Assembly (NCBI GenBank): GCA_963807405.1
Contig: CAWEBU010000006.1
Span: 615,733 to 679,732, forward strand
DNA length: 64,000 bases
Source: an uncultured Acidobacteriota bacterium
GTDB taxonomy: Bacteria; Acidobacteriota; Vicinamibacteria; Vicinamibacterales; UBA2999
Direction of reading: 5' to 3'
Below, piece by piece: positions 1,758 to 53,290 of this stretch. The stretch's first letter is position 1. Each line of letters starts with the position of its first letter. The position numbers and the translations under genes are program-made. Under the pieces are notes generated by a model. That model ran no database searches, had not been told where the DNA came from, and saw only the letters and a program-made list of their open reading frames with translations.

Positions 1758-3437
1758 GTGATAGTCGATGTGACGATACGTCCGAGGTTCGCCTGGTGGC
1801 TGACGGTGGCGTGGCTCTCCACCTCCGCCTGCGGGCGTGAGGTCGTACCGGCTGCGCCGCCGGCCGCCGTCCAGGCGGGGCCCCAGCGCGTCGTCGCCTC
1901 GGTGACCGGCGCGGTCACCGAGGTGGCGGTGACGCTCGGCGCTTCGAGTGCGGAGGCTGTGAGCGTGGGCGCGCTCTACGACGCACGCGCGGGAGCGCTG
2001 GCGTGGGCGGCGGCCGACGGGGCGCCGCCCGGTGCGGCCGAGGCGATGCTGGCGCGGTTGCACGACGCCGCGCGCCATGCGCTCGCCCCTGCTGCCTACC
2101 TGACGCCCGCCGTGGTCAGCGCCCTCGACGGATCCGCGGGCGATGCCACCAGGCGTGATGTCGCCCTGACGCTGGCAGTGCTGCGTTACATGGGCCACCT
2201 GCATCTCGGCCGGATCGATCCGCGCAGCCTCGGCCGGCGTTTCCAGGTGCGGCCCGAGCCGCACGACTTTCCGCAACTGCTGGCCAGGGCGCTGGCCGAC
2301 GGACGTGTGGTCGAGGTCATCGACGCCCTGGCGCCACCGTTTGCCGTCTACGGTCAGCTCGTGGACGCCCTCGCACGCTATCGCGCGCTGGCGGCGCTGG
2401 CGCTCCCGGCGGTGCCCTCGGCCGTGGAGGCCGTTCGCGCCGGTGACCGCTATCCGGGCGTCCCGGCCCTGGCGCGTCGGCTGGTGGCGTTCGGCGATCT
2501 CGACTCGGCGGCTGCGTGGTCCGCCGGCAGCACCCTCTATGACGCGGCCCTGAGCACGGCGGTGGTCCGCTTCCAGACCCGCCACGGCCTCACGCCAGAC
2601 GGCGTCGTCGGCCGGCGGACGCTGGCGGCCTTGCAGGTGCCGCTGTCGGCGCGGGTCGCGCAGATCGAGTTCGCGCTCGAGCGCCTGCGGTGGCTGCCCG
2701 ATCTGGGCGACCGGCGCCTGGTGCTCGTGAACATCCCGATGTTCCGGCTGTGGGCGTGGGAAGCCGGACAGCTCGTTGCGCCGCCCGTCGTGTCGATGGA
2801 GGTCATCGTCGGCCGGGCGATGCGGAGCGAGACGCCGGTGTTCGTCGAGCAGATGGAAGAGGTCGTCTTCTGGCCGTACTGGAACGTGCCGCGGTCGATC
2901 GTGCTCGGGGAAGTGCTGCCGGCGGTGGACCGCGACCCCGGCTACCTGGCGCGCCAGCAGATGGAGATCGTGCGGGGATGGGGCGACGACGCCCCGGCGG
3001 TCGCGCCGGACGCGGCGGCGCTGACAGACCTCGCGGCCGGCCGGCTGCGCCTGCGGCAGCGGCCGGGGCCCCACAATTCGCTCGGCCTGGTGAAGTTCAT
3101 GTTCCCCAACAACGACAGTATCTACATGCACGACACGCCGGCGCCGCTGCTCTTTGCGCGTGAACGTCGCGACTTCAGCCACGGCTGCATCCGGGTCCAG
3201 GACCCGACGGCGCTGGCGGCGTGGGTGCTGGCCGGGAGAGCCGGCTGGACGAAGCCGGTCATCGAGGCGGCGATGGCCAGGAGCACGTCGCGCTCGGTGC
3301 CCGTGGCCGCACCGATCGATGTCGTGCTGTTCTACTCGACCGCCGCCGTCAGCCCCGACGACGGCGCGCTCCACTTCGCGAACGACATCTACGGGCACGA
3401 CGCCACGCTGGCGCGTGCGCTCACGCGCGCGCGGTAG
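1758..3437 (+). CDS. L,D-transpeptidase (YcbB/LdtD-like) with peptidoglycan-binding domain
   Basis: PG_binding_1-like RFQTRHGLTPDGVVGRRTLAAL, then the YkuD catalytic motif RDFSHGCIRV. The true start may be GTG 1770 (lipoprotein-like ...WLSTSAC). Confidence 0.85.
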   Translation: MIVDVTIRPRFAWWLTVAWLSTSACGREVVPAAPPAAVQAGPQRVVASVTGAVTEVAVTLGASSAEAVSVGALYDARAGALAWAAADGAPPGAAEAMLARLHDAARHALAPAAYLTPAVVSALDGSAGDATRRDVALTLAVLRYMGHLHLGRIDPRSLGRRFQVRPEPHDFPQLLARALADGRVVEVIDALAPPFAVYGQLVDALARYRALAALALPAVPSAVEAVRAGDRYPGVPALARRLVAFGDLDSAAAWSAGSTLYDAALSTAVVRFQTRHGLTPDGVVGRRTLAALQVPLSARVAQIEFALERLRWLPDLGDRRLVLVNIPMFRLWAWEAGQLVAPPVVSMEVIVGRAMRSETPVFVEQMEEVVFWPYWNVPRSIVLGEVLPAVDRDPGYLARQQMEIVRGWGDDAPAVAPDAAALTDLAAGRLRLRQRPGPHNSLGLVKFMFPNNDSIYMHDTPAPLLFARERRDFSHGCIRVQDPTALAAWVLAGRAGWTKPVIEAAMARSTSRSVPVAAPIDVVLFYSTAAVSPDDGALHFANDIYGHDATLARALTRAR

Positions 3438-3458
3438 CCGGGCGCGCGGAGCGCGGTG

Positions 3459-3998
3459 TTACCAGCGCCGGACGCGGCCGGTGTCGATGTGTACGAAGTT
3501 CGACGCGGGGTAGTAGCCGACGCCGCCGCCCTGCACGTCGAGGGCGGCCGCACGCAAAGTCGCCAGCGGCACACCGGCCACCCGGACATCGATCGCCTGA
3601 CCGACCATGTGGAGGCTGCGCGCGGCGACACCGCCGCTGCGCTCGCGCAGCGCGGCATTGGTGTGCGGCGAGCGGTAGCCGGAGATGACCTCGAACGCGT
3701 GGCGGGTATCGAGACGCCGCGCGATCTGGTGGAGAAGATCGATCAGGCCCGGATCGATGGGATGGATGTCGCCGGTGCGGAAGTCGCGGAGCAGCCGGTT
3801 CACCGCGCTCAGTGCCTCGGGTAGGTAGCGCTCGCCCTCGGCGTACTCGATGGTGAGTGCCTCGCCTGTGTGGAGGTGCCGGAAGCCGATCGCGCGCGGC
3901 ACCGCGGCGTGGGCCCGCGCCGGGCGGAACGCCAGGGCGCCGCCGGCAATCACGAAAGACTTGAGGAAACGTCGGCGGTTCTGGCGCGGGAACGACAA
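3459..3998 (-). CDS. DUF882 / peptidase M15A family protein (YcbK/MepK-like), Tat signal
   Basis: Has the Tat-type signal RRRFLKSFVIAGGALAF. Also has YRSPHTNAAL...SLHMVGQAIDVRV...NFVHIDTG, typical of DUF882 zinc peptidases. Confidence 0.85.
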   Translation of the reverse strand: MSFPRQNRRRFLKSFVIAGGALAFRPARAHAAVPRAIGFRHLHTGEALTIEYAEGERYLPEALSAVNRLLRDFRTGDIHPIDPGLIDLLHQIARRLDTRHAFEVISGYRSPHTNAALRERSGGVAARSLHMVGQAIDVRVAGVPLATLRAAALDVQGGGVGYYPASNFVHIDTGRVRRW

Positions 3999-4082
3999 GG
4001 TTCCCAGTCTGCCACGGCATCCGCCGCACCGGCAACGCCGCCGGATCCCCGCACCTCACGGCTGGGCCGGGGCCTCTCTCCC

Positions 4083-4214
4083 TCAGGTCCCGCGATTGCC
4101 GGGCCACCAGCTCGGGCGATTCTCGCGCAGCCAGTGAACGCCCCAGGCGCCGATCGACGCGCCAGCGATGGCCCCGAAGAAGGCCATGACGACTACTTGC
4201 GTATCGAGTTCCAT
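4083..4214 (-). CDS. small single-pass membrane protein (43 aa), hypothetical
   Basis: Not in the ORF track because it is under 60 aa. ATG 4214 is preceded by AAGGAGAG. Translation: MELDTQVVVMAFFGAIAGASIGAWGVHWLRENRPSWWPGNRGT, with one hydrophobic helix. Lies directly upstream of the DUF882 gene on the same strand. Confidence 0.4.
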   Translation of the reverse strand: MELDTQVVVMAFFGAIAGASIGAWGVHWLRENRPSWWPGNRGT

Positions 4215-4487
4215 ACCGCTCTCCTTGTGGGCGACGGGGGACGTCCGGTGGCCGTCTGGCCAAGCGCCGCCACCACGTCAGGTGGGAGCAAGCCTCGCGC
4301 CAGCGGCAATGGCACACAGGGTGGACCGCGTGAGCCGTCGTTCCCCCGGAGTGGTGATGAACTCGCAGTCGCGCGAAGAATCCGGCGGGCACGTGGCCTC
4401 GGCCCGCGCAGTCCGCCCCGTTCATTCGCCACCGCAGACGTTCCGCGGCTGTGGCACGGGACGTGGATAGGACCGCCGGGGGGCCGC

Positions 4488-5249
4488 ATGATTCGTGACC
4501 GAAAATGGATGGCAGCACTGGTGGTGACAGGCGTCTTTCTGGCGGCGGACGGCCAGGCACAGACGCAGAGCCGCTGCGCCGATTGTCACTTCGCCAATCC
4601 GGGCTCGGTGTCGCCCGGTCACTTGTCGGAGTGGGATCTCTCGAGCCACGGCCGCCAGAACGTGGGCTGCGAAACCTGCCACGGCGGCGATCCGCGATCC
4701 TTCGAGCCGTTCGTCGCCCACCAGGGCATCCTGGCGCGCACGAATCCGGCCAGTCCCGTGCATCCAACCAATCTGCCGAAGACCTGCGGTGCGTGTCACA
4801 CGGGCCCGTTCCTGGCGTTCCAGCGCAGCAAGCACTACGAGCTGCTGCGGGCGGGCGACAGGAGCGCTCCGACCTGCGCGACCTGCCACGGCGAGGCCGC
4901 CGCGTTCCGGCTGTCGCCGAAAGCCCTCGAAGCGCAGTGCGCGTCCTGTCACGGTGCCGGCAAGATCGCCCCGCGTCCCGAGTACGCGGCGCAGGCGCGC
5001 ATGGCCGATGAAGGCCTGCGCGAGGCGCGCGCGCTGCTCAAGGACGCGCGCAACGCCATCGGGCGGGTGAAGGACACGGCGCGACGGGCGTCGCTCGAGC
5101 AGGCCGCGCAGCAGGCCGAAGTGCCGATCATCGAAGCCACGCAGGCCGGCCATCAGTTCGTCTTCGACCAGCTCGCGGAGCGGCTGAACACCGCGCGCGC
5201 CCGTCTGGCCGCGCTCTTCGAGCGCCTCGCCAACCCCGACGTGCCATAG
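4488..5249 (+). CDS. pentaheme c-type cytochrome, exported
   Basis: Start placed at ATG 4488 (signal peptide MIRDRKWMAALVVTGVFLAA). Five CXXCH motifs: CADCH, CETCH, CGACH, CATCH, CASCH. The 3870-4487 part of the track ORF is Arg/Pro-rich and looks non-coding. Confidence 0.75.
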   Translation: MIRDRKWMAALVVTGVFLAADGQAQTQSRCADCHFANPGSVSPGHLSEWDLSSHGRQNVGCETCHGGDPRSFEPFVAHQGILARTNPASPVHPTNLPKTCGACHTGPFLAFQRSKHYELLRAGDRSAPTCATCHGEAAAFRLSPKALEAQCASCHGAGKIAPRPEYAAQARMADEGLREARALLKDARNAIGRVKDTARRASLEQAAQQAEVPIIEATQAGHQFVFDQLAERLNTARARLAALFERLANPDVP

Positions 5250-5339
5250 CATGCCGCCGACGCCGGGACGCTGACGGCCGGGCCGTTCCCGCTCGACCGC
5301 CTTCGCGCATGCGGCGATGGCGGGTCGTTCAGGCGCGGG

Positions 5340-6278
5340 TCAGACCGGCACGCTGGCCGGGGCGGTTTCCGTGCGGCGGCGGTCGGTCACCTTCGGGTGC
5401 ACCGCCATCACCGGACAGCCGGCGCGGCGGATGACGTCATTGGTCGTCGAGCCGAAGGCCATCAGGTCGATGGCGCCGCGGCCGCGCACGCCCATCACGA
5501 CGACGTCGGCCCGGCCTTCCTGTGCCGCTTCGAGGATGCACTGGCTGGGCTTCCCGAAGGCGACGTGCTCCTTGATATGGCACCACTCGCGCACCTCCGG
5601 CGACACCGCGGCGGCCAGCGTCTCCCGGGCGTGCGTCTCACCCAGCCGGCGATACTCGCCGGTGTCGAGCGCGCCGAACTCGCCCGAGGCCGGCACCGGC
5701 TCGACGACGTAGAGCAGCGTGACCTGGCCGTCGGTCTCCCGCGCCAGTGACAGGGCGAAGGTCAAGGCGTCGGCCGATGCGGCCGAACCATCGACCGGGC
5801 ACAGAATCCGCGAGAAGAGCACGCTCGTCTCCGGATGCGCCGCCGGCGGCACGACCATCACCGGGCAGGGCGCGCGCCGCACCACTTTCTCGGCGACCGA
5901 CCCGAGCAGCAGGTGCTCGACGCCGCCCCGGCCATGCGTGCCGATGACGAGCAGGTCGGCCTCCTGCTCCTCGGCCGCTGCCAGGATCTCCCGTGCGGCG
6001 TGGCCGCCTCGGATCGCCGTCTCGGTGACGACGCCCGTGGCGCGGGCGCGGTCGCGGGCAGCCGCCAGGTCGAGCTGCGCCTGCTCGCGCTGCTCCTCGA
6101 ACAGCCGCACGTCGACGGGGATCTCGCCGTAGGGCGCCATGATCGGCATCGGCGGATCGATGTGCAGCAGGTGCAGCGTGGCGTCGAAGTGGCCGGCCAG
6201 GGCCGTGGCGTAGACCTCGGCCTTGGTCGAGACCTCTGAGAAATCGGTCGGACAGAGGATGCGAGAAAGGCTCAACAT
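5340..6278 (-). CDS. universal stress protein, tandem UspA domains
   Basis: ATG 6278 is preceded by AGGAGG. There are two USP domains, each with a G-x2-G-x9-G-S/T motif (VIGTHGRGGVEHLLLGSVAEKV; VMGVRGRGAIDLMAFGSTTNDV). Confidence 0.85.
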   Translation of the reverse strand: MLSLSRILCPTDFSEVSTKAEVYATALAGHFDATLHLLHIDPPMPIMAPYGEIPVDVRLFEEQREQAQLDLAAARDRARATGVVTETAIRGGHAAREILAAAEEQEADLLVIGTHGRGGVEHLLLGSVAEKVVRRAPCPVMVVPPAAHPETSVLFSRILCPVDGSAASADALTFALSLARETDGQVTLLYVVEPVPASGEFGALDTGEYRRLGETHARETLAAAVSPEVREWCHIKEHVAFGKPSQCILEAAQEGRADVVVMGVRGRGAIDLMAFGSTTNDVIRRAGCPVMAVHPKVTDRRRTETAPASVPV

Positions 6279-6324
6279 GCGCCGACCTCCTGTGTGCCCA
6301 CGACTCTGGGGCCACCTCGTACCG

Positions 6325-6340
6325 AGCAACGGCCGTGCCG
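6325..6340 (-). promoter_or_regulatory. sigma54 -24/-12 promoter (CGGCACGgccgTTGCT) for the USP gene
   Basis: The minus-strand sequence matches TGGCACG-N4-TTGCW except at the first base. The GC of -12 lies about 45 nt upstream of ATG 6278. A sigma54 activator gene is immediately upstream. Confidence 0.55.
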
Positions 6341-6411
6341 GGTGCCGCGCCGGCCATTCTCCGGCCCGGCGCGTGTCACTCGACGGCCGCGGGTAGTTGT
6401 CCGCGTGGGGA

Positions 6412-6427
6412 TGCGGATTCCTCCGCA
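6412..6427. promoter_or_regulatory. palindrome TGCGGA-N4-TCCGCA, candidate enhancer (UAS) for the sigma54 promoter
   Basis: Perfect 6-bp inverted repeat about 75-90 bp upstream of the -24 element, which is the usual distance for enhancer-binding-protein sites. Confidence 0.3.
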
Positions 6428-6455
6428 CGGCGGTGGCAATCCACCCGCCAGCGGT

Positions 6456-7844
6456 CTAGGCCGGTTTGTCGTCGCCCGTCGTACGTCCGTGCTTGTCGAG
6501 ACCGAACTTCTCGAGCCGATAGCGGATCTGATCGCGGTTCATGCCGAGCAGCTGCGCCGCGTGCGTCTGGTTGCCGTGGGCCCGCTGCAGCGCCTGCGCC
6601 ACGAGATCCCGCTCCAGCACTTCGAGGTTCACGCCGTCGGCCGGGAGCGTGAAGCCCGAGGTGATGGGCGTGGCGGCGGCCAGCATCGAGAAGTGCTCCG
6701 GGCCGAGCACTTCGCTCTCGGTGAGCAGCATGGCGCGTTCGACGGCGTTGCGCAGCTCGCGGACGTTGCCTGGCCAATGGTAGGCATCGAGCGCCTTGAG
6801 CGCCGCCGGCGTCACGCTCTTCACGTTCTTCCTGAACTCGCCGTTGAAGAGCCGCACGAAGTGGTCGACCAGCAGCGCCACGTCGCCGGTCCGCTCGCGC
6901 AGCGGCGGCAGCGTGATCGGCATGACGCCCAGGCGGTAGTAGAGGTCCTCGCGGAACTTGCCGTCACGCACCGACTGCGTGAGGTTGCGGTGGGTGGCGG
7001 CGATGACGCGCACGTCGACCTTGAGATCGTTGAGCCCGCCGACGCGCTTGAACGTCTTCTCCTCGAGGAACCGCAGCAGCTTGGCCTGCAGCGCCGGACT
7101 CATCTCGCCGATTTCGTCGAGGAAGATGGTGCCGCCGGAGGCCGTCTCGAACAGGCCGCGCTTCTGCATCCGGGCATCGGTGAACGCGCCGCGCTCGTGT
7201 CCGAAGAGCTCGCTCTCGAGGAGATGCTCGGGCAGCGCCGAGCAGGTGATGTTCAGGAACGGCCGCGCGGCCCGGTCGCTGTTGTAGTGAATGGCCTTGG
7301 CCGCCAGATCCTTGCCGGTGCCGGTTTCACCCTGCAGCAGCACGGTCGAGGCCGGACTGGCGGCCACCTTGGCCATGACGGCCTTGACGGCGGCGATGGC
7401 GGGCGAGCCGCCGATGACACGATCGAAAGCGTGCGGCTCGCGTTCGCGCGCCCGCAGCGCCTTCACCTCGCGGCGCAGCTGACTGGTCTCGAGCGCCTTG
7501 CCGATCGAAATCAGGAGCTGTTCGAACTCGAAGGGCTTCTTCGCGTAGTCGTAGGCGCCCTGCTTGATGGCTTCGACCGCCGTCTGGATGGTGGCGAAGG
7601 CGGTCAGCAGGATCACCGGCACGGTCGGCTGCAGTTCCTTCAGTTGGCGCAGTACCTGCAAGCCATCGGTGTCGGGGAGCTTGAAATCGAGCAAGACCAG
7701 GTCGATGGTGTCCCCGAAGGCCGCCACGGCCTCGGCACCGGACCCGGCTTCGACCACGTCGAAGCCGTTCGCCATCAGCTGCTCGCGGAGCGTCCAGCGA
7801 ATCAGCTGTTCGTCGTCGACCACCAGGATGGTTGCGGCAGGCAT
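6456..7844 (-). CDS. sigma54-dependent response regulator (NtrC family enhancer-binding protein)
   Basis: Start at ATG 7844 (MPAATILVVDDEQ, receiver domain). AAA+ Walker A GETGTGKD. GAFTGA-loop variant ELFGHERGAFTDA. C-terminal Fis-type HTH (HAAQLLGMNRDQIRYRLEKFGL). Confidence 0.9.
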   Translation of the reverse strand: MPAATILVVDDEQLIRWTLREQLMANGFDVVEAGSGAEAVAAFGDTIDLVLLDFKLPDTDGLQVLRQLKELQPTVPVILLTAFATIQTAVEAIKQGAYDYAKKPFEFEQLLISIGKALETSQLRREVKALRAREREPHAFDRVIGGSPAIAAVKAVMAKVAASPASTVLLQGETGTGKDLAAKAIHYNSDRAARPFLNITCSALPEHLLESELFGHERGAFTDARMQKRGLFETASGGTIFLDEIGEMSPALQAKLLRFLEEKTFKRVGGLNDLKVDVRVIAATHRNLTQSVRDGKFREDLYYRLGVMPITLPPLRERTGDVALLVDHFVRLFNGEFRKNVKSVTPAALKALDAYHWPGNVRELRNAVERAMLLTESEVLGPEHFSMLAAATPITSGFTLPADGVNLEVLERDLVAQALQRAHGNQTHAAQLLGMNRDQIRYRLEKFGLDKHGRTTGDDKPA

Positions 7845-7926
7845 CCGGGGCAGTATAGCGGTCTGCCCGCTGCCGCCGACGGGGAGGTAGACTTCCGGGC
7901 GCCGTGCTCTCCCGAAGGGCTGATTC

Positions 7927-9024
7927 GTGACCGACCGCACCCCTGACCGCGACGAAGAGGATCTGGACCAGACGCTGGCCCTTTACAAGGCCGTGGTCGA
8001 GACCATCGTCGACGGCATCGTCGTCATCAGTGCCGGTGGGCGCATGGCGTGGTCGAACCGCGCCGCGCAGAGGATGTTTGGCTACGCCGCCAGCGAACTC
8101 GTGGGCCGCAACGTCTCGATGCTGATGCCACCGCACGATTCGAGTCACCACGACGGCTATCTGAGCCGCTATCTGGAGACGGGTGAGCGCCGCATCATCG
8201 GCATCGGACGCGAGGTGCGGGGACGGCGCAAGGACGGCAGCGATTTTCCGCTCTACCTGGCGGTCGGCGAGACGACCGTCGACGGCGAGCGCAAGTTCAC
8301 CGGGATTCTGCGTGACCTGTCGGAGCAGAAGGGCCTGGAGCGGCTGCTGCAGGAACGCCAGATCCTGGCGCGCATCGGCGAACTGACGGCCATCGTGGCG
8401 CACGAGGTGCGCAATCCGCTGGCGGCGATCCGCGGCGTGGTGGAGGTGATCCAGACGCGCTTTCCGCCTGAATCGGCCGACCGCAAGGTGCTCGGTGACC
8501 TGCTGGCCCGCGTCGGCTCTCTGGATGAGCTGGTCGGCGATCTGCTGGTCTACGCCCGGCCGGCGCCGCCCACCTTCGGCAGGACGTCCGTGCTGGCGCT
8601 GGTGCGCGAGACGACCGCCCTGCTCGACAACGCTCCCTCCTCCTCGCCCCTGCACTTCGAGGTCAGCGGCGACGAGTCCGACCTGTGGCTCGACGCCGCC
8701 CAGATGAGCCGCGCCGTGCTCAATCTGGTGACCAACGCCGCGCAGGCGATGCGCCATCAGGGCGTGGTGCGCGTGACCGGCCAGCAGGCGGGTGACCGCT
8801 ATCAGTTGCGGATCATCGATGGCGGCCCCGGGATGTCCGATGACGTCCGGGCCCGGTGCCTCGAGCCGTTCTTCACGACCAAGACCCGCGGCACCGGCCT
8901 CGGCCTGTCGATTGCCCGGCGCATCGTGGAGGAGCACGGCGGCCGCTTCACCATCGCCAGCCGGCTCGGGACCGGAACGGAAGTGACGATCGACCTGCCG
9001 ACCGCGGCGCGTGAAAGCGCCTGA
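7927..9024 (+). CDS. soluble PAS sensor histidine kinase, FixL-type heme-PAS
   Basis: No TM segment. The PAS segment [42 protein letters not shown] closely resembles the FixL heme pocket ([41 protein letters not shown], recalled from memory). H-box [11 protein letters not shown]. G-boxes DGGPGM and GTGLGLSIA. Confidence 0.85.
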   Translation: [365 protein letters not shown]

Positions 9025-9154
9025 CCGGCCTGCGAAGTTTTTCCCGGCGACGGCGTGGCGCTCGACCTCTGCCCTGGAGATCGCTGGCCGGCGCGGCTAC
9101 CGCCGTGGTACGCGTTTCGCACTCCTCCCTGCGAATCGTGGGGTGGAGGACAAC

Positions 9155-9376
9155 ATGGCGCACGCAATCACCAAAAAGAACGACATCGAGACGCTGGTCG
9201 TCGTCGTACGGCGGGAGTTCGAGGAGATGCCCGGGCTGGTGCTGACCGCCGATCAGGCGCGGCGGCTATGGGCGATCGAGCCACGCATGTGCAGCGTCGT
9301 GCTGGACCGGCTGGTCGGAGCGGGTTACCTGCATCAGACCCCGTCCGGACACTACGTGAAGCCCTCGGCGGCCTGA
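9155..9376 (+). CDS. small hypothetical protein (73 aa), possible winged-helix fold
   Basis: ATG 9155 is preceded by GGAGGA. Same strand as the kinase and just downstream of it. No family recognised. Confidence 0.5.
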   Translation: MAHAITKKNDIETLVVVVRREFEEMPGLVLTADQARRLWAIEPRMCSVVLDRLVGAGYLHQTPSGHYVKPSAA

Positions 9377-53274: not shown

Positions 53275-53290
53275 GCAAGTTCCGTGCCCA
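53275..53290 (-). promoter_or_regulatory. sigma54 -24/-12 promoter (GGGCACGgaacTTGCG) upstream of the small Cys protein gene
   Basis: The minus strand matches TGGCACG-N4-TTGCW except at the first base. TTGC ends 27 nt upstream of ATG 53247. Confidence 0.5.

What the first reader, a model, noticed from the sequence alone, without database searches (positions are those of the whole stretch)
4310..9376. FixL-type heme-PAS kinase wired to a sigma54 activator instead of FixJ, with a sigma54 promoter on an adjacent tandem-USP gene
The soluble kinase (7927-9024) has a PAS segment ([49 protein letters not shown]...[12 protein letters not shown]). This is very close to the heme-binding PAS of rhizobial FixL as I remember it, including the proximal His in HDGYL. 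Its divergently transcribed partner (6456-7844) is not a FixJ/LuxR-type regulator. It is an NtrC-family sigma54 enhancer-binding protein (receiver, AAA+ with GAFTDA loop, Fis HTH). Immediately downstream of that regulator, the tandem-USP gene (5340-6278) is preceded by CGGCACGgccgTTGCT (6325-6340, minus strand). This is a near-consensus -24/-12 promoter. A TGCGGA-N4-TCCGCA palindrome (6412-6427) lies about 80 bp further upstream and is a plausible enhancer. A pentaheme cytochrome c gene (4488-5249) lies next to it. The inference is an O2/redox-sensing two-component module driving a sigma54-dependent hypoxia/stress response, which is an unusual output wiring for a FixL-like sensor.
Basis: partly seen in the sequence, partly recalled or inferred. 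Interest (0 to 1): 0.6.

Follow-up and report, generated by a model that had tools for sequence, protein, structure and literature searches.

The report
Heme-PAS oxygen sensor driving sigma54 stress genes
A soil acidobacterium couples a FixL-type heme oxygen-sensor domain to a sigma54 activator that very probably switches on universal-stress-protein genes; the same module occurs in several Acidobacteriota families and one planctomycete, and I found no description of it in the papers searched.

Summary
The 365-aa soluble kinase is a mosaic. Its PAS domain is FixL-type: 52% and 45% identical to solved FixL heme domains, with the proximal His and both key Arg kept, and the model superposes on BjFixL at 1.0-1.1 A. 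Its transmitter is AtoS/ZraS-type. The divergent neighbour is a complete REC-AAA+-Fis sigma54 activator, and rpoN is present.

The kinase-activator pair is syntenic in at least 13 genomes of the genus. It recurs in four Acidobacteriota families and in one Planctomycetota MAG.

CGGCACG-N4-TTGCT is invariant in eight orthologous spacers of the genus. The same three-part module occurs once more in this genome, before a receiver-USP-USP fusion and a P-type ATPase.

In relatives the promoter drives receiver, tandem USP, USP and CBS genes. The window has lost three of these.

Most likely this is an O2-sensing system driving a hypoxia-type USP/CBS regulon. It is analogous to Myxococcus NmpRSTU and mycobacterial DosRST. 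Heme binding, signal polarity and phosphotransfer are inferred. It is a new variant of known kinds.

The parts
7927..9024 (+). Soluble sensor histidine kinase (365 aa): FixL-type heme-PAS domain, then an AtoS/ZraS-type HisKA (H159 in AHEVRNPL) and HATPase_c.
   Evidence: Pfam. PDB phmmer hits FixL heme domains at E about 5e-33. NCBIfam run per domain. AF2 model with Foldseek.
7981..8325 (+). Heme-PAS domain (about residues 19-133). His75 (codon 8149-8151) aligns with the proximal His200 of BjFixL, R81 with R206, I90-I91 with I215-I216, and R95 with R220.
   Evidence: Gap-free alignments to 1d06 (51.8% over 114 aa) and 1dp6 (44.8% over 125 aa). The mutant entries 2cmn and 1y28 fix the numbering. 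Superposition on 1drm and 1lt0 gives TM 0.92 and 0.95, rmsd 1.1 and 1.0 A.
6456..7844 (-). NtrC/AtoC-family sigma54 enhancer-binding response regulator (462 aa): REC (D53), AAA+ (GETGTGK, GAFTDA), Fis-type HTH.
   Evidence: Pfam. Best NCBIfam hit is AtoC at 470 bits, below its cut-off. GAFTDA is conserved in the orthologues. Adjacency to the kinase is conserved.
6325..6340 (-). Sigma54 -24/-12 promoter CGGCACGGCCGTTGCT, 47 nt upstream of the USP ATG.
   Evidence: Invariant CGGCACG-N4-GTTGCTC in an alignment of 10 sequences: the window, eight congeners and this genome's contig C2. The scan found no sigma70-type promoter or terminator.
6389..6404 (-). Element E2, GCGGACAACTACCCGC. Its core G-G-ACAACT-C is invariant across the genus. 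Probable enhancer half of the upstream activating sequence.
   Evidence: Alignment A1. The composite E1-E2 followed by a sigma54 promoter occurs exactly twice in the genome.
6412..6427 (-). Element E1, TGCGGA-GGAA-TCCGCA. This is the local variant of the GGAAT(C/A)TTCC palindrome found about 85-95 nt upstream of the -24 element in relatives. Probable activator binding site.
   Evidence: The same element precedes sigma54 promoters in other genera and families (G019, G039) and at paralogous loci.
5340..6278 (-). Tandem universal stress protein (312 aa, both domains of the ATP-binding type). It is the only gene left in the sigma54-driven unit in this genome.
   Evidence: Pfam Usp at 240.7 bits, two stretches. 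ATP motifs. Orthologues at 66-81% identity in synteny.
4488..5249 (+). Pentaheme c-type cytochrome with a signal peptide. It is convergent to the USP gene and a conserved neighbour, not part of the USP operon.
   Evidence: Five CXXCH motifs. Pfam. Synteny.
4452..4468 (+). TGGCACGGGACGTGGAT, 20 nt before the cytochrome ATG. It has sigma54 spacing but GG in place of the -12 GC. Function unresolved.
   Evidence: Conserved across the genus: TGGAT in 8 of the 9 genomes compared, TGTAT with a one-base shorter spacer in the ninth. Only 5 such sites exist in the genome.
9158..9376 (+). 72-aa stand-alone winged-helix protein, conserved directly downstream of the kinase. Possible accessory component.
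   Evidence: Alignment A3. AF2 pLDDT 82.5. Foldseek hits the wHTH domains of IclR/MarR/GntR regulators at E about 1e-2.

Best explanation
This is a two-component system in which a FixL-type heme-PAS domain has been joined to an AtoS/ZraS-type transmitter.

Shown: the sensor, the partner genes, the promoter, the upstream elements and their conservation.

Inferred: the kinase binds heme b through His75 and senses O2 through the conserved distal Arg95. By analogy with FixL, it autophosphorylates when deoxy and passes the phosphoryl group to Asp53 of the divergently encoded NtrC/AtoC-type activator. The activated AAA+ oligomer binds the GGAAT-TTCC-type palindrome and the ACAACT element about 60-95 bp upstream. 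It then remodels sigma54 holoenzyme sitting on CGGCACG-N4-TTGCT.

This switches on the tandem USP here. It also switches on a second operon on contig C2 that encodes a receiver-USP-USP fusion and a P-type ATPase. In congeners the same promoter drives receiver, tandem USP, USP and CBS-pair genes, which is a hypoxia or energy-stress type of regulon. The receiver that is encoded with the USP, or fused to it, is probably a second phospho-acceptor of the same kinase.
For: Sensor:
- The PAS domain matches FixL heme domains at E about 5e-33. His200, Arg206, Ile215/216 and Arg220 equivalents are all kept.
- The best NCBIfam hit for the PAS alone is FixL at 143 bits; the next specific family is DosP at 52 bits.
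- The model superposes on 1drm and 1lt0 at 1.0-1.1 A.

Transmitter:
- AtoS 197 bits and ZraS 152 bits, whereas FixL matches only the CA part at 82 bits.
- This fits an AtoC/ZraR-like partner.

Pairing:
- Kinase and activator are adjacent in at least 13 genomes of the genus, in other families of the order, and in 7 of 18 heme-PAS loci sampled across the phylum, spanning four families. All seven keep the His and Arg.
- The pair also occurs in a Planctomycetota MAG beside sigma54-promoted USP-CBS-USP genes.

Promoter and enhancer:
- rpoN is present.
- The promoter and E2 are invariant islands in otherwise variable spacers.
- The composite E1-E2-promoter occurs only twice in 5.4 Mb, both times before USP genes. 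It is kept at the paralogous locus of G006.
- An E1 palindrome plus a sigma54 promoter precedes a USP gene in another genus.
- No sigma70 consensus promoter was found.

Other support:
- GAFTDA is listed as a variant expected to keep the ability to activate in Desulfovibrio EBPs (PMC4641369).
- Precedent for heme O2 sensor to NtrC-like regulator to sigma54 promoters of CBS and USP genes: NmpRSTU (PMC11841059).
Against: - No experiment or transcript data supports this.
- Heme binding is inferred from sequence only.
- Signal polarity cannot be read from sequence. It depends on the PAS-DHp linker, which here belongs to a different transmitter class from FixL.
- Kinase and activator are divergently transcribed, not co-operonic.
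- In two order-level relatives the orthologous transmitter-activator pair carries a non-heme PAS. The output module is therefore not tied to O2 sensing as such.
- The window's E1 differs from the genus consensus (3-nt shorter spacer). The locus has lost the receiver, the single USP and the CBS genes, and the kinase has lost its N-terminal GAF/PAS. It could be a decaying copy.
- Only two target operons were found, so the word regulon rests on a small set.
Confidence: 0.72

Rival explanations
1. The components and wiring are the same, but the heme-PAS reports something other than O2 limitation. It could report heme-iron redox state (as in Brucella NtrY) or NO/CO. Alternatively the polarity is inverted, with the O2-bound form active as in the globin-coupled kinases AfGcHK and NmpU, so the USP genes would be switched on under oxic or oxidising conditions.
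For: NtrY binds heme in a PAS domain and acts as a redox sensor, as stated in PMC7240162. AfGcHK and NmpU are active with O2. The transmitter is not FixL-type, so the coupling logic need not be FixL's.
Against: The residues that make FixL O2-selective are all conserved here and in the orthologues: Arg220, Ile215/216 and Arg206 equivalents. The output content (USP, CBS, P-type ATPase) matches known low-oxygen regulons.
Confidence: 0.17
2. The adjacent activator is not the kinase's main partner. The kinase chiefly phosphorylates the single-domain receiver (here fused to the USP on contig C2) or another regulator. The activator would then be driven by a different kinase or by acetyl phosphate.
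For: The two genes are divergent and not co-transcribed. A receiver gene is the first gene of the target operon in most congeners and is fused to the USP in two genomes. That receiver shares the unusual alpha1 motif DDExLxRWxL with the activator's receiver.
Against: Adjacency of kinase and activator is kept across families, and the pair also sits in one locus in a second phylum, while the receiver gene comes and goes. The transmitter and the activator both have AtoS/AtoC and ZraS/ZraR as closest families. The shared alpha1 motif argues for both being targets rather than only one.
Confidence: 0.07
3. The locus in this genome is a decaying remnant. The truncated kinase and the altered enhancer would no longer function, and only the C2 paralogue is regulated.
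For: Compared with congeners the window lacks the kinase's N-terminal GAF/PAS, the receiver, the single USP and the CBS genes. E1 is altered. The sister genome G006 has lost the -12 element at its primary locus.
Against: All remaining reading frames are intact, and the kinase start has a plausible ribosome-binding site. The same minimal architecture (heme-PAS plus transmitter, 370-395 aa) is the native form in other lineages: G263, G282, G019 and the planctomycete. The promoter and E2 are intact.
Confidence: 0.04

Closest known systems
FixL/FixJ of rhizobia (Bradyrhizobium, Sinorhizobium)
   Same: The heme-PAS sensor domain is the same: 45-52% identity, the same fold, and the same proximal His and distal or propionate-binding Arg and Ile residues. 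It is a histidine kinase.
   Different: The DHp domain is AtoS/ZraS-type, not FixL-type. The partner is a sigma54 AAA+ activator instead of a FixJ (LuxR/NarL-type) regulator acting at sigma70 promoters. There is no FixK cascade. The targets are USP/CBS genes rather than fixK/nifA. The whole-protein score is far below the NCBIfam FixL cut-off: 230 against 850.
NmpRSTU of Myxococcus xanthus (PMC11841059)
   Same: A heme-based O2-sensing kinase ultimately controls an NtrC-like activator. That activator acts on sigma54 promoters with two upstream palindromic sites. The targets include a CBS-domain protein, a USP and a P-type ATPase. The gene content matches the operons found here and in relatives.
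   Different: The Nmp sensor is a protoglobin, not a PAS domain. Its signal is inverted through a hybrid kinase (NmpS) and a double-receiver protein (NmpT). Here a single kinase sits next to the activator. The binding-site consensus also differs: GCGCA-N5-TGCGC against the GGAAT-TTCC and ACAACT elements.
DosS/DosT-DosR dormancy regulon of Mycobacterium tuberculosis
   Same: Heme-based sensor kinases switch on a regulon rich in USPs, with a CBS-pair protein, under hypoxia. This rests on established knowledge and the discussion in PMC11841059.
   Different: DosS and DosT bind heme in GAF domains. DosR is a NarL-type regulator at sigma70-family promoters. There is no sigma54.
NtrY/NtrX of Brucella and other alphaproteobacteria
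   Same: A PAS-heme kinase is paired with an NtrC-family regulator (PMC7240162).
   Different: NtrY is a membrane protein with a HAMP domain, and it is described as a redox sensor. From my own knowledge, not checked here: NtrY's PAS is not of the FixL type, and NtrX of alphaproteobacteria does not act through sigma54 in the classical way. The targets are denitrification and envelope genes.
AtoS/AtoC and ZraS/ZraR of E. coli
   Same: They are the closest curated families for both the transmitter and the activator. The architecture is the same: PAS-HisKA-HATPase kinase plus REC-AAA+-Fis regulator.
   Different: Scores are below the equivalog cut-offs: 241 against 646, and 470 against 714. The sensor is a heme-PAS, not the AtoS or ZraS input. 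The targets are unrelated.

Membership tests
FixL (oxygen-sensing heme-PAS histidine kinase) | PAS domain of the FixL/DosP heme-b cluster with a proximal His on the F-alpha helix | tested here: met
   His75 aligns with His200 of BjFixL in gap-free alignments to 1d06 and 1dp6. FixL is the top NCBIfam hit for the PAS alone. Fold match to 1drm gives TM 0.92 and rmsd 1.1 A.
FixL (oxygen-sensing heme-PAS histidine kinase) | Distal and propionate residues that confer O2-specific switching (BjFixL Arg206, Ile215, Ile216, Arg220) | tested here: met
   R81, I90, I91 and R95 are present. The numbering was fixed by the mutant entries 2cmn (R206A) and 1y28 (R220A). They are conserved in the orthologues.
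FixL (oxygen-sensing heme-PAS histidine kinase) | Whole-protein equivalence to rhizobial FixL, including its DHp | tested here: not met
   NCBIfam sens_FixL_Rhizob scores 229.6 bits against a cut-off of 850. On the transmitter alone FixL matches only the CA part (82 bits), against AtoS at 197 bits.
FixL (oxygen-sensing heme-PAS histidine kinase) | Cognate FixJ-type (receiver plus LuxR/NarL HTH) regulator | tested here: not met
   The conserved neighbour is a REC-Sigma54_activat-HTH_8 protein.
FixL (oxygen-sensing heme-PAS histidine kinase) | Binds heme b, and kinase activity is inhibited by O2 | not testable with these tools
   This needs the purified protein, UV-vis spectra and autophosphorylation assays.
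NtrC-family bacterial enhancer-binding response regulator | Receiver with phospho-Asp, AAA+ Sigma54_activat domain with Walker A, and C-terminal Fis-type HTH | tested here: met
   Pfam: Response_reg 95.7 bits, Sigma54_activat 225.7 bits, HTH_8 50.6 bits. D53 and GETGTGK are present.
NtrC-family bacterial enhancer-binding response regulator | GAFTGA sigma54-contact loop | tested here: inconclusive
   The loop reads GAFTDA. It is conserved in nearly all orthologues. The same variant is listed among those expected to retain activation in Desulfovibrio EBPs (PMC4641369). It has not been tested functionally.
NtrC-family bacterial enhancer-binding response regulator | Sigma54 (rpoN) encoded in the genome | tested here: met
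   Sigma54_DBD scores 215.9 bits in an intact 494-aa frame at G000:C6:882768-883241.
Sigma54-dependent promoter | GG and GC doublets ten bases apart, matching TGGCAC-N5-TTGCW, in an intergenic region facing a gene | tested here: met
   CGGCACGGCCGTTGCT lies 47 nt before the ATG. It is invariant in eight orthologous spacers of the genus and in the paralogue on this genome's own contig C2, and it also stands at G006's paralogous locus.
Sigma54-dependent promoter | Transcription start about 12 nt downstream of the GC, dependent on sigma54 and the activator | not testable with these tools
No transcript data were available.
AtoS/AtoC two-component system | Score above the curated equivalog cut-offs | tested here: not met
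   AtoS scores 240.9 against 646, and AtoC 469.9 against 714.
NmpRSTU-type oxygen relay | Protoglobin sensor kinase, hybrid kinase and double-receiver relay upstream of the NtrC-like regulator | tested here: not met
   The sensor is a PAS domain and not a globin. No hybrid kinase or double receiver is in the locus. The output logic is similar.
Universal stress protein, ATP-binding (UspFG-type) | Usp fold with the G-2x-G-9x-G-(S/T) motif | tested here: met
   Two Usp domains score 240.7 bits. The motifs lie at residues 113 and 263.

The most novel reading that the evidence does not exclude
The heme-PAS kinase and its sigma54 activator define an undescribed oxygen-sensing system family that spans phyla (Acidobacteriota and Planctomycetota) and controls a dormancy-like USP/CBS regulon. 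Within it, the receiver domain that is co-transcribed with the tandem USP, or fused to it, makes the USP itself a direct phospho-target of the O2 sensor. Oxygen would then control USP abundance through sigma54 and USP activity through phosphorylation.
Probability: 0.3. Interest if true: 0.65.

Novelty: new variant of a known kind. Interest (0 to 1): 0.52.

Why it matters
How Acidobacteriota and Planctomycetota sense oxygen is largely unknown. Both are abundant soil and water phyla that are hard to culture.

This locus gives a concrete and testable candidate:
- a minimal 365-aa soluble sensor;
- its regulator;
- a defined promoter and enhancer;
- a small regulon (USP, CBS, P-type ATPase) that parallels the hypoxia regulons of Mycobacterium and Myxococcus, although it is built from different parts.

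It also illustrates modular evolution of two-component systems. The same transmitter-activator pair carries a heme-PAS in some lineages and a non-heme PAS in others. The FixL heme-PAS is thereby shown to feed a sigma54 output.

The receiver-USP fusion hints at post-translational control of a protein family whose biochemical function is still poorly understood.

Tried and rejected
1. **More regulon members.** I scanned the whole genome for E2, for E1 and for the composite motif. Only the two USP operons carry the composite followed by a sigma54 promoter.

2. **E1 as the terminator hairpin of the activator gene.** Rejected. The element recurs at C2 and at G006's paralogous locus. At C2 the upstream gene is divergent and the palindrome would leave a 2-nt loop. 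There is no T-run, and the scan found no terminator.

3. **Cytochrome c as part of the USP operon.** Rejected, because the genes are convergent. Its own conserved TGGCAC-N5-(G/A)TGGAT motif lacks the -12 GC. It is not a general promoter type, with only 5 sites in the genome. The distal copy at 4310-4325 is not conserved. Regulon membership is left open.

4. **Contig C2 as contamination.** Rejected. G006 has an orthologous receiver-USP-USP fusion with the same cis-module, and the GC content is similar.

5. **The window kinase as a truncated pseudogene.** Considered, because congeners carry an N-terminal GAF/PAS. Judged unlikely, because the minimal form is native in other lineages and the frame and ribosome-binding site are intact.

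6. **Membership in AtoS/AtoC or in FixL proper.** Scores are below the cut-offs.

8. **Literature.** Searches for a FixL-type heme-PAS kinase paired with a sigma54 activator found none. The library covers open-access papers only.

Full report
**Observation**

- The region holds a 365-aa kinase at 7927-9024(+) with PAS, HisKA and HATPase_c domains.
- A divergent 462-aa regulator lies at 6456-7844(-) with Response_reg, Sigma54_activat, AAA_lid and HTH_8 domains.
- A 312-aa protein with two Usp domains lies at 5340-6278(-).
- A 253-aa c-type cytochrome lies at 4488-5249(+). It has five CXXCH motifs.
- The minus-strand sequence between the regulator's stop and the USP start contains TGCGGAGGAATCCGCA (6427-6412), GCGGACAACTACCCGC (6404-6389) and CGGCACGGCCGTTGCT (6340-6325). 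The last ends 47 nt before the ATG.
- The exact core GGCAC-N5-TTGC occurs twice in the window against 0.62 expected, so it is not significant on its own.
- rpoN is present and intact elsewhere on the same contig.

**The kinase is a mosaic**

- Against the PDB, the N-terminal 150 residues hit FixL heme domains at E about 5e-33, without gaps.
- Identity is 51.8% over 114 residues to 1d06 and 44.8% over 125 residues to 1dp6.
- The mutant entries 2cmn and 1y28 in the same output differ from wild type at the Arg of SRY and the Arg of GIGR. That fixes BjFixL numbering onto the window protein: His75 = His200 (proximal ligand), Arg81 = Arg206, Ile90/91 = Ile215/216, Arg95 = Arg220.
- An AlphaFold2 model built on 11 orthologues (pLDDT 77.5) superposes on the BjFixL heme domain. 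TM is 0.92 and rmsd 1.1 A for 1drm; TM is 0.95 and rmsd 1.0 A for 1lt0.
- When the two halves are scored separately against NCBIfam, the PAS half is FixL first (143 bits; DosP 52).
- The transmitter half is AtoS first (197 bits), then ZraS (152 bits). FixL matches only the CA subdomain (82 bits).
- The H-box AHEVRNPL is of the AtoS/ZraS/NtrB type.
- So this is not a FixL that changed partner. It is an AtoS-like kinase that carries a FixL-type sensor.

**Partner and conservation**

- The regulator's best curated families are AtoC, NtrC and ZraR, all below their equivalog cut-offs. They are the cognate families of the transmitter's best hits.
- It has D53, Walker A GETGTGK and a GAFTDA loop.
- GAFTDA is conserved in almost all its orthologues. 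A Desulfovibrio survey lists it among natural variants expected to retain sigma54 activation (PMC4641369).
- The genome is a Vicinamibacterales acidobacterium, judging by the record titles of near relatives.
- The kinase is found at 67-79% identity in most of the 18 congeneric genomes.
- The order cytochrome, USP, regulator, kinase, small ORF, membrane protein, MgtC-like is kept wherever the contig allows.
- Kinase-regulator adjacency also holds in other genera and families of the order.
- In a sample of 301 Acidobacteriota genomes, 33 encode a FixL-type PAS.
- Of 18 such loci fetched, 7 place it in a kinase next to a REC-AAA+ regulator that is 54-87% identical in the AAA+ domain. These 7 come from four families, and all keep the His and the Arg.
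- In two order-level relatives (G039, G031) the orthologous transmitter and regulator are joined to a different PAS that lacks the heme segment. That shows the sensor domain has been swapped.

**Promoter and enhancer**

- An alignment of the spacers from the window, eight congeners and a paralogous locus on this genome's contig C2 shows two invariant islands in otherwise variable sequence. One is G-G-(G/A)ACAACT-C. The other is CGGCACG-N4-GTTGCTC.
- A semi-conserved GGAATC(T)TCC lies just upstream.
- The stricter promoter pattern has 42 hits in the 5.4-Mb genome.
- The composite GGA-N4-TCC ... ACAACT has four hits. Two of them are followed 85-96 nt later by a sigma54 promoter.
- Those two are the USP promoter in the window and a site on the 18-kb contig C2. 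There the module precedes a 438-aa receiver-USP-USP fusion and a 617-aa P-type ATPase.
- At C2 the upstream gene is divergent, so the palindrome is not the regulator gene's terminator.
- G006 has an orthologous fusion (75% identity) with the same three cis-elements, so C2 is genuine.
- In another genus (G019), a perfect GGAATATTCC lies 84 nt upstream of TGGCACGGAGGTTGCC, which precedes a USP gene.
- In G039, GGAATAATCC and a sigma54 promoter follow the regulator gene.
- No sigma70 consensus promoter or intrinsic terminator was found in 5250-8000.

**What the promoter drives**

- In most congeners the promoter is followed by a 125-aa single-domain receiver, the tandem USP, a 157-aa USP and a 143-aa CBS-pair protein.
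- The window has lost the receiver, the single USP and the CBS gene. G003 has lost the receiver, and remnants are visible there.
- The window kinase also lacks the N-terminal GAF-like and PAS_4 domains present in congeners.
- The minimal form of heme-PAS plus transmitter is nevertheless the native architecture in G263, G282, G019 and the planctomycete.
- The receiver shares the alpha1 motif DDExLxRWxL with the regulator's receiver. This weak hint, together with the fusion, suggests the same kinase phosphorylates both.

**A second phylum**

In a Planctomycetota MAG (L043), a 369-aa kinase with a FixL-type PAS is flanked on both sides.
- On one side a divergent sigma54 promoter (TGGCACATCACTTGCA) is followed by USP, CBS and USP genes.
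- On the other side lie a tandem USP, a VIT1 transporter and a REC-Sigma54_activat-HTH_8 regulator, preceded by a second sigma54 promoter.
- Both promoters have a TGTGCG/CGCACA palindrome upstream. This is a different enhancer sequence with the same logic.
- A recent computational survey independently reports enrichment of UspA-family genes behind predicted sigma54 promoters in Planctomycetia (PMC12316311).

**Cytochrome c**

- It is convergent to the USP gene and cannot be co-transcribed with it.
- Twenty nucleotides before its ATG lies TGGCACGGGACGTGGAT. This element is conserved across the genus: TGGAT in 8 of the 9 genomes compared, TGTAT with a shorter spacer in the ninth.
- It has sigma54 spacing but GG instead of GC at -12. 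Only five such sites exist in the genome.
- GGAA..TCC-type palindromes lie 72-88 nt upstream in five of the nine genomes compared.
- The distal copy, noted in an earlier first-stage finding, is not conserved.
- Whether the cytochrome belongs to the regulon is open.

**Mechanism**

Shown:
- the domain make-up;
- the conservation of the heme pocket;
- the conserved pairing;
- the presence of sigma54;
- the conserved promoter and upstream elements;
- their restriction to USP operons.

Inferred:
- heme binding;
- O2 as the signal;
- the deoxy form as the active state (by analogy with FixL);
- phosphotransfer to D53;
- binding of the activator to E1 and E2;
- induction of USP genes at low O2.

The main rival keeps the wiring but changes the signal or the polarity. 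The second rival makes the small receiver the main partner. The third treats the window's reduced locus as decaying.

**Comparison with known systems**

- The sensor domain meets the FixL tests. The protein as a whole fails them on transmitter, partner and curated score.
- The regulator meets the bEBP tests, apart from the GAFTDA variant.
- In function the closest system is NmpRSTU of Myxococcus xanthus. There a heme protoglobin kinase controls, through a relay, an NtrC-like regulator that activates sigma54 promoters of a CBS-domain gene, a USP, a P-type ATPase with cbb3 oxidase, and hemN-hemerythrin (PMC11841059).
- DosS/T-DosR of mycobacteria gives a similar USP/CBS output from GAF-heme sensors and a NarL-type regulator.
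- NtrY/NtrX is another heme-PAS kinase with an NtrC-family partner (PMC7240162).
- I found no paper describing a FixL-cluster heme-PAS kinase paired with a sigma54 activator. The library is limited to open-access papers.

**Verdict**

This is a new variant of known kinds, a different assembly of known parts, rather than a new kind of system. Its value lies in four things: a conserved, compact and testable oxygen-sensing module in two under-studied phyla; a predicted enhancer; a predicted small regulon; and a receiver-USP link worth testing. Interest is moderate.

**Limits**

- There are no transcript or biochemical data.
- The relatives sampled are kin, so counts across them are not independent.

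Noticed in passing
window 9158-9376 (+): A 72-aa stand-alone winged-helix protein with an invariant EMPGL..L(T)..QA..L...C..L..LV..G motif. It is conserved directly downstream of the kinase in the genus and lies near the system in G019, G022, G039 and G171. AF2 pLDDT is 82.5. Foldseek hits the wHTH domains of IclR, MarR and GntR regulators at E about 1e-2. No Pfam family passes threshold.
   Followed up: partly
window 4452-4468 (+), upstream of the cytochrome c gene: TGGCAC-N5-(G/A)TGGAT lies about 20 nt before the ATG and is conserved across the genus (TGGAT in 8 of the 9 genomes compared, TGTAT with a shorter spacer in the ninth). It has sigma54 spacing but GG instead of GC at -12. Only 5 such sites exist in the genome. 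The distal copy at 4310-4325 is not conserved.
   Followed up: partly
own genome contig C2 (L120) 5473-8730 (-): A second sigma54 promoter (CGGCACGGGGGTTGCT) with the same upstream elements drives a 438-aa receiver-USP-USP fusion protein and a 617-aa P-type ATPase without an obvious metal-binding domain. G006 has an orthologous fusion.
   Followed up: yes
L043 (Planctomycetota MAG JAJDEE010000041.1) 2400-8620: The same kind of module occurs in another phylum. A heme-PAS kinase is flanked by a sigma54-promoted USP-CBS-USP unit and by a regulator-VIT1-tandem USP unit. TGTGCG/CGCACA palindromes lie upstream of both promoters.
   Followed up: partly
L034 3678-5090 and L036 7061-8470 (G022, G021): Kinases with two FixL-type heme-PAS domains in tandem, both keeping the proximal His and the GR motif. 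No sigma54 activator lies in the fetched flanks.
   Followed up: no
L022 6166-7030 and relatives: Congeneric kinases carry an extra N-terminal weak GAF domain, with or without a PAS_4 domain (about 515-650 aa in total). The window's kinase lacks these, and the kinase-regulator spacer is only 82 bp against 530-1000 bp in congeners.
   Followed up: partly
window 53275-53288 (-): GGGCACGGAACTTGCG lies 27 nt upstream of the ATG (53247) of a 73-aa Cys-rich ORF, which precedes a DNA-methyltransferase-like gene. It is the only other exact GGCAC-N5-TTGC in the window.
   Followed up: no
L032 (G006) spacer between the regulator and the USP gene: In the sister genome the primary-locus promoter has lost its -12 element (CGGCACACCTCTCGGAT), while its paralogous fusion locus keeps a perfect promoter.
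   Followed up: no
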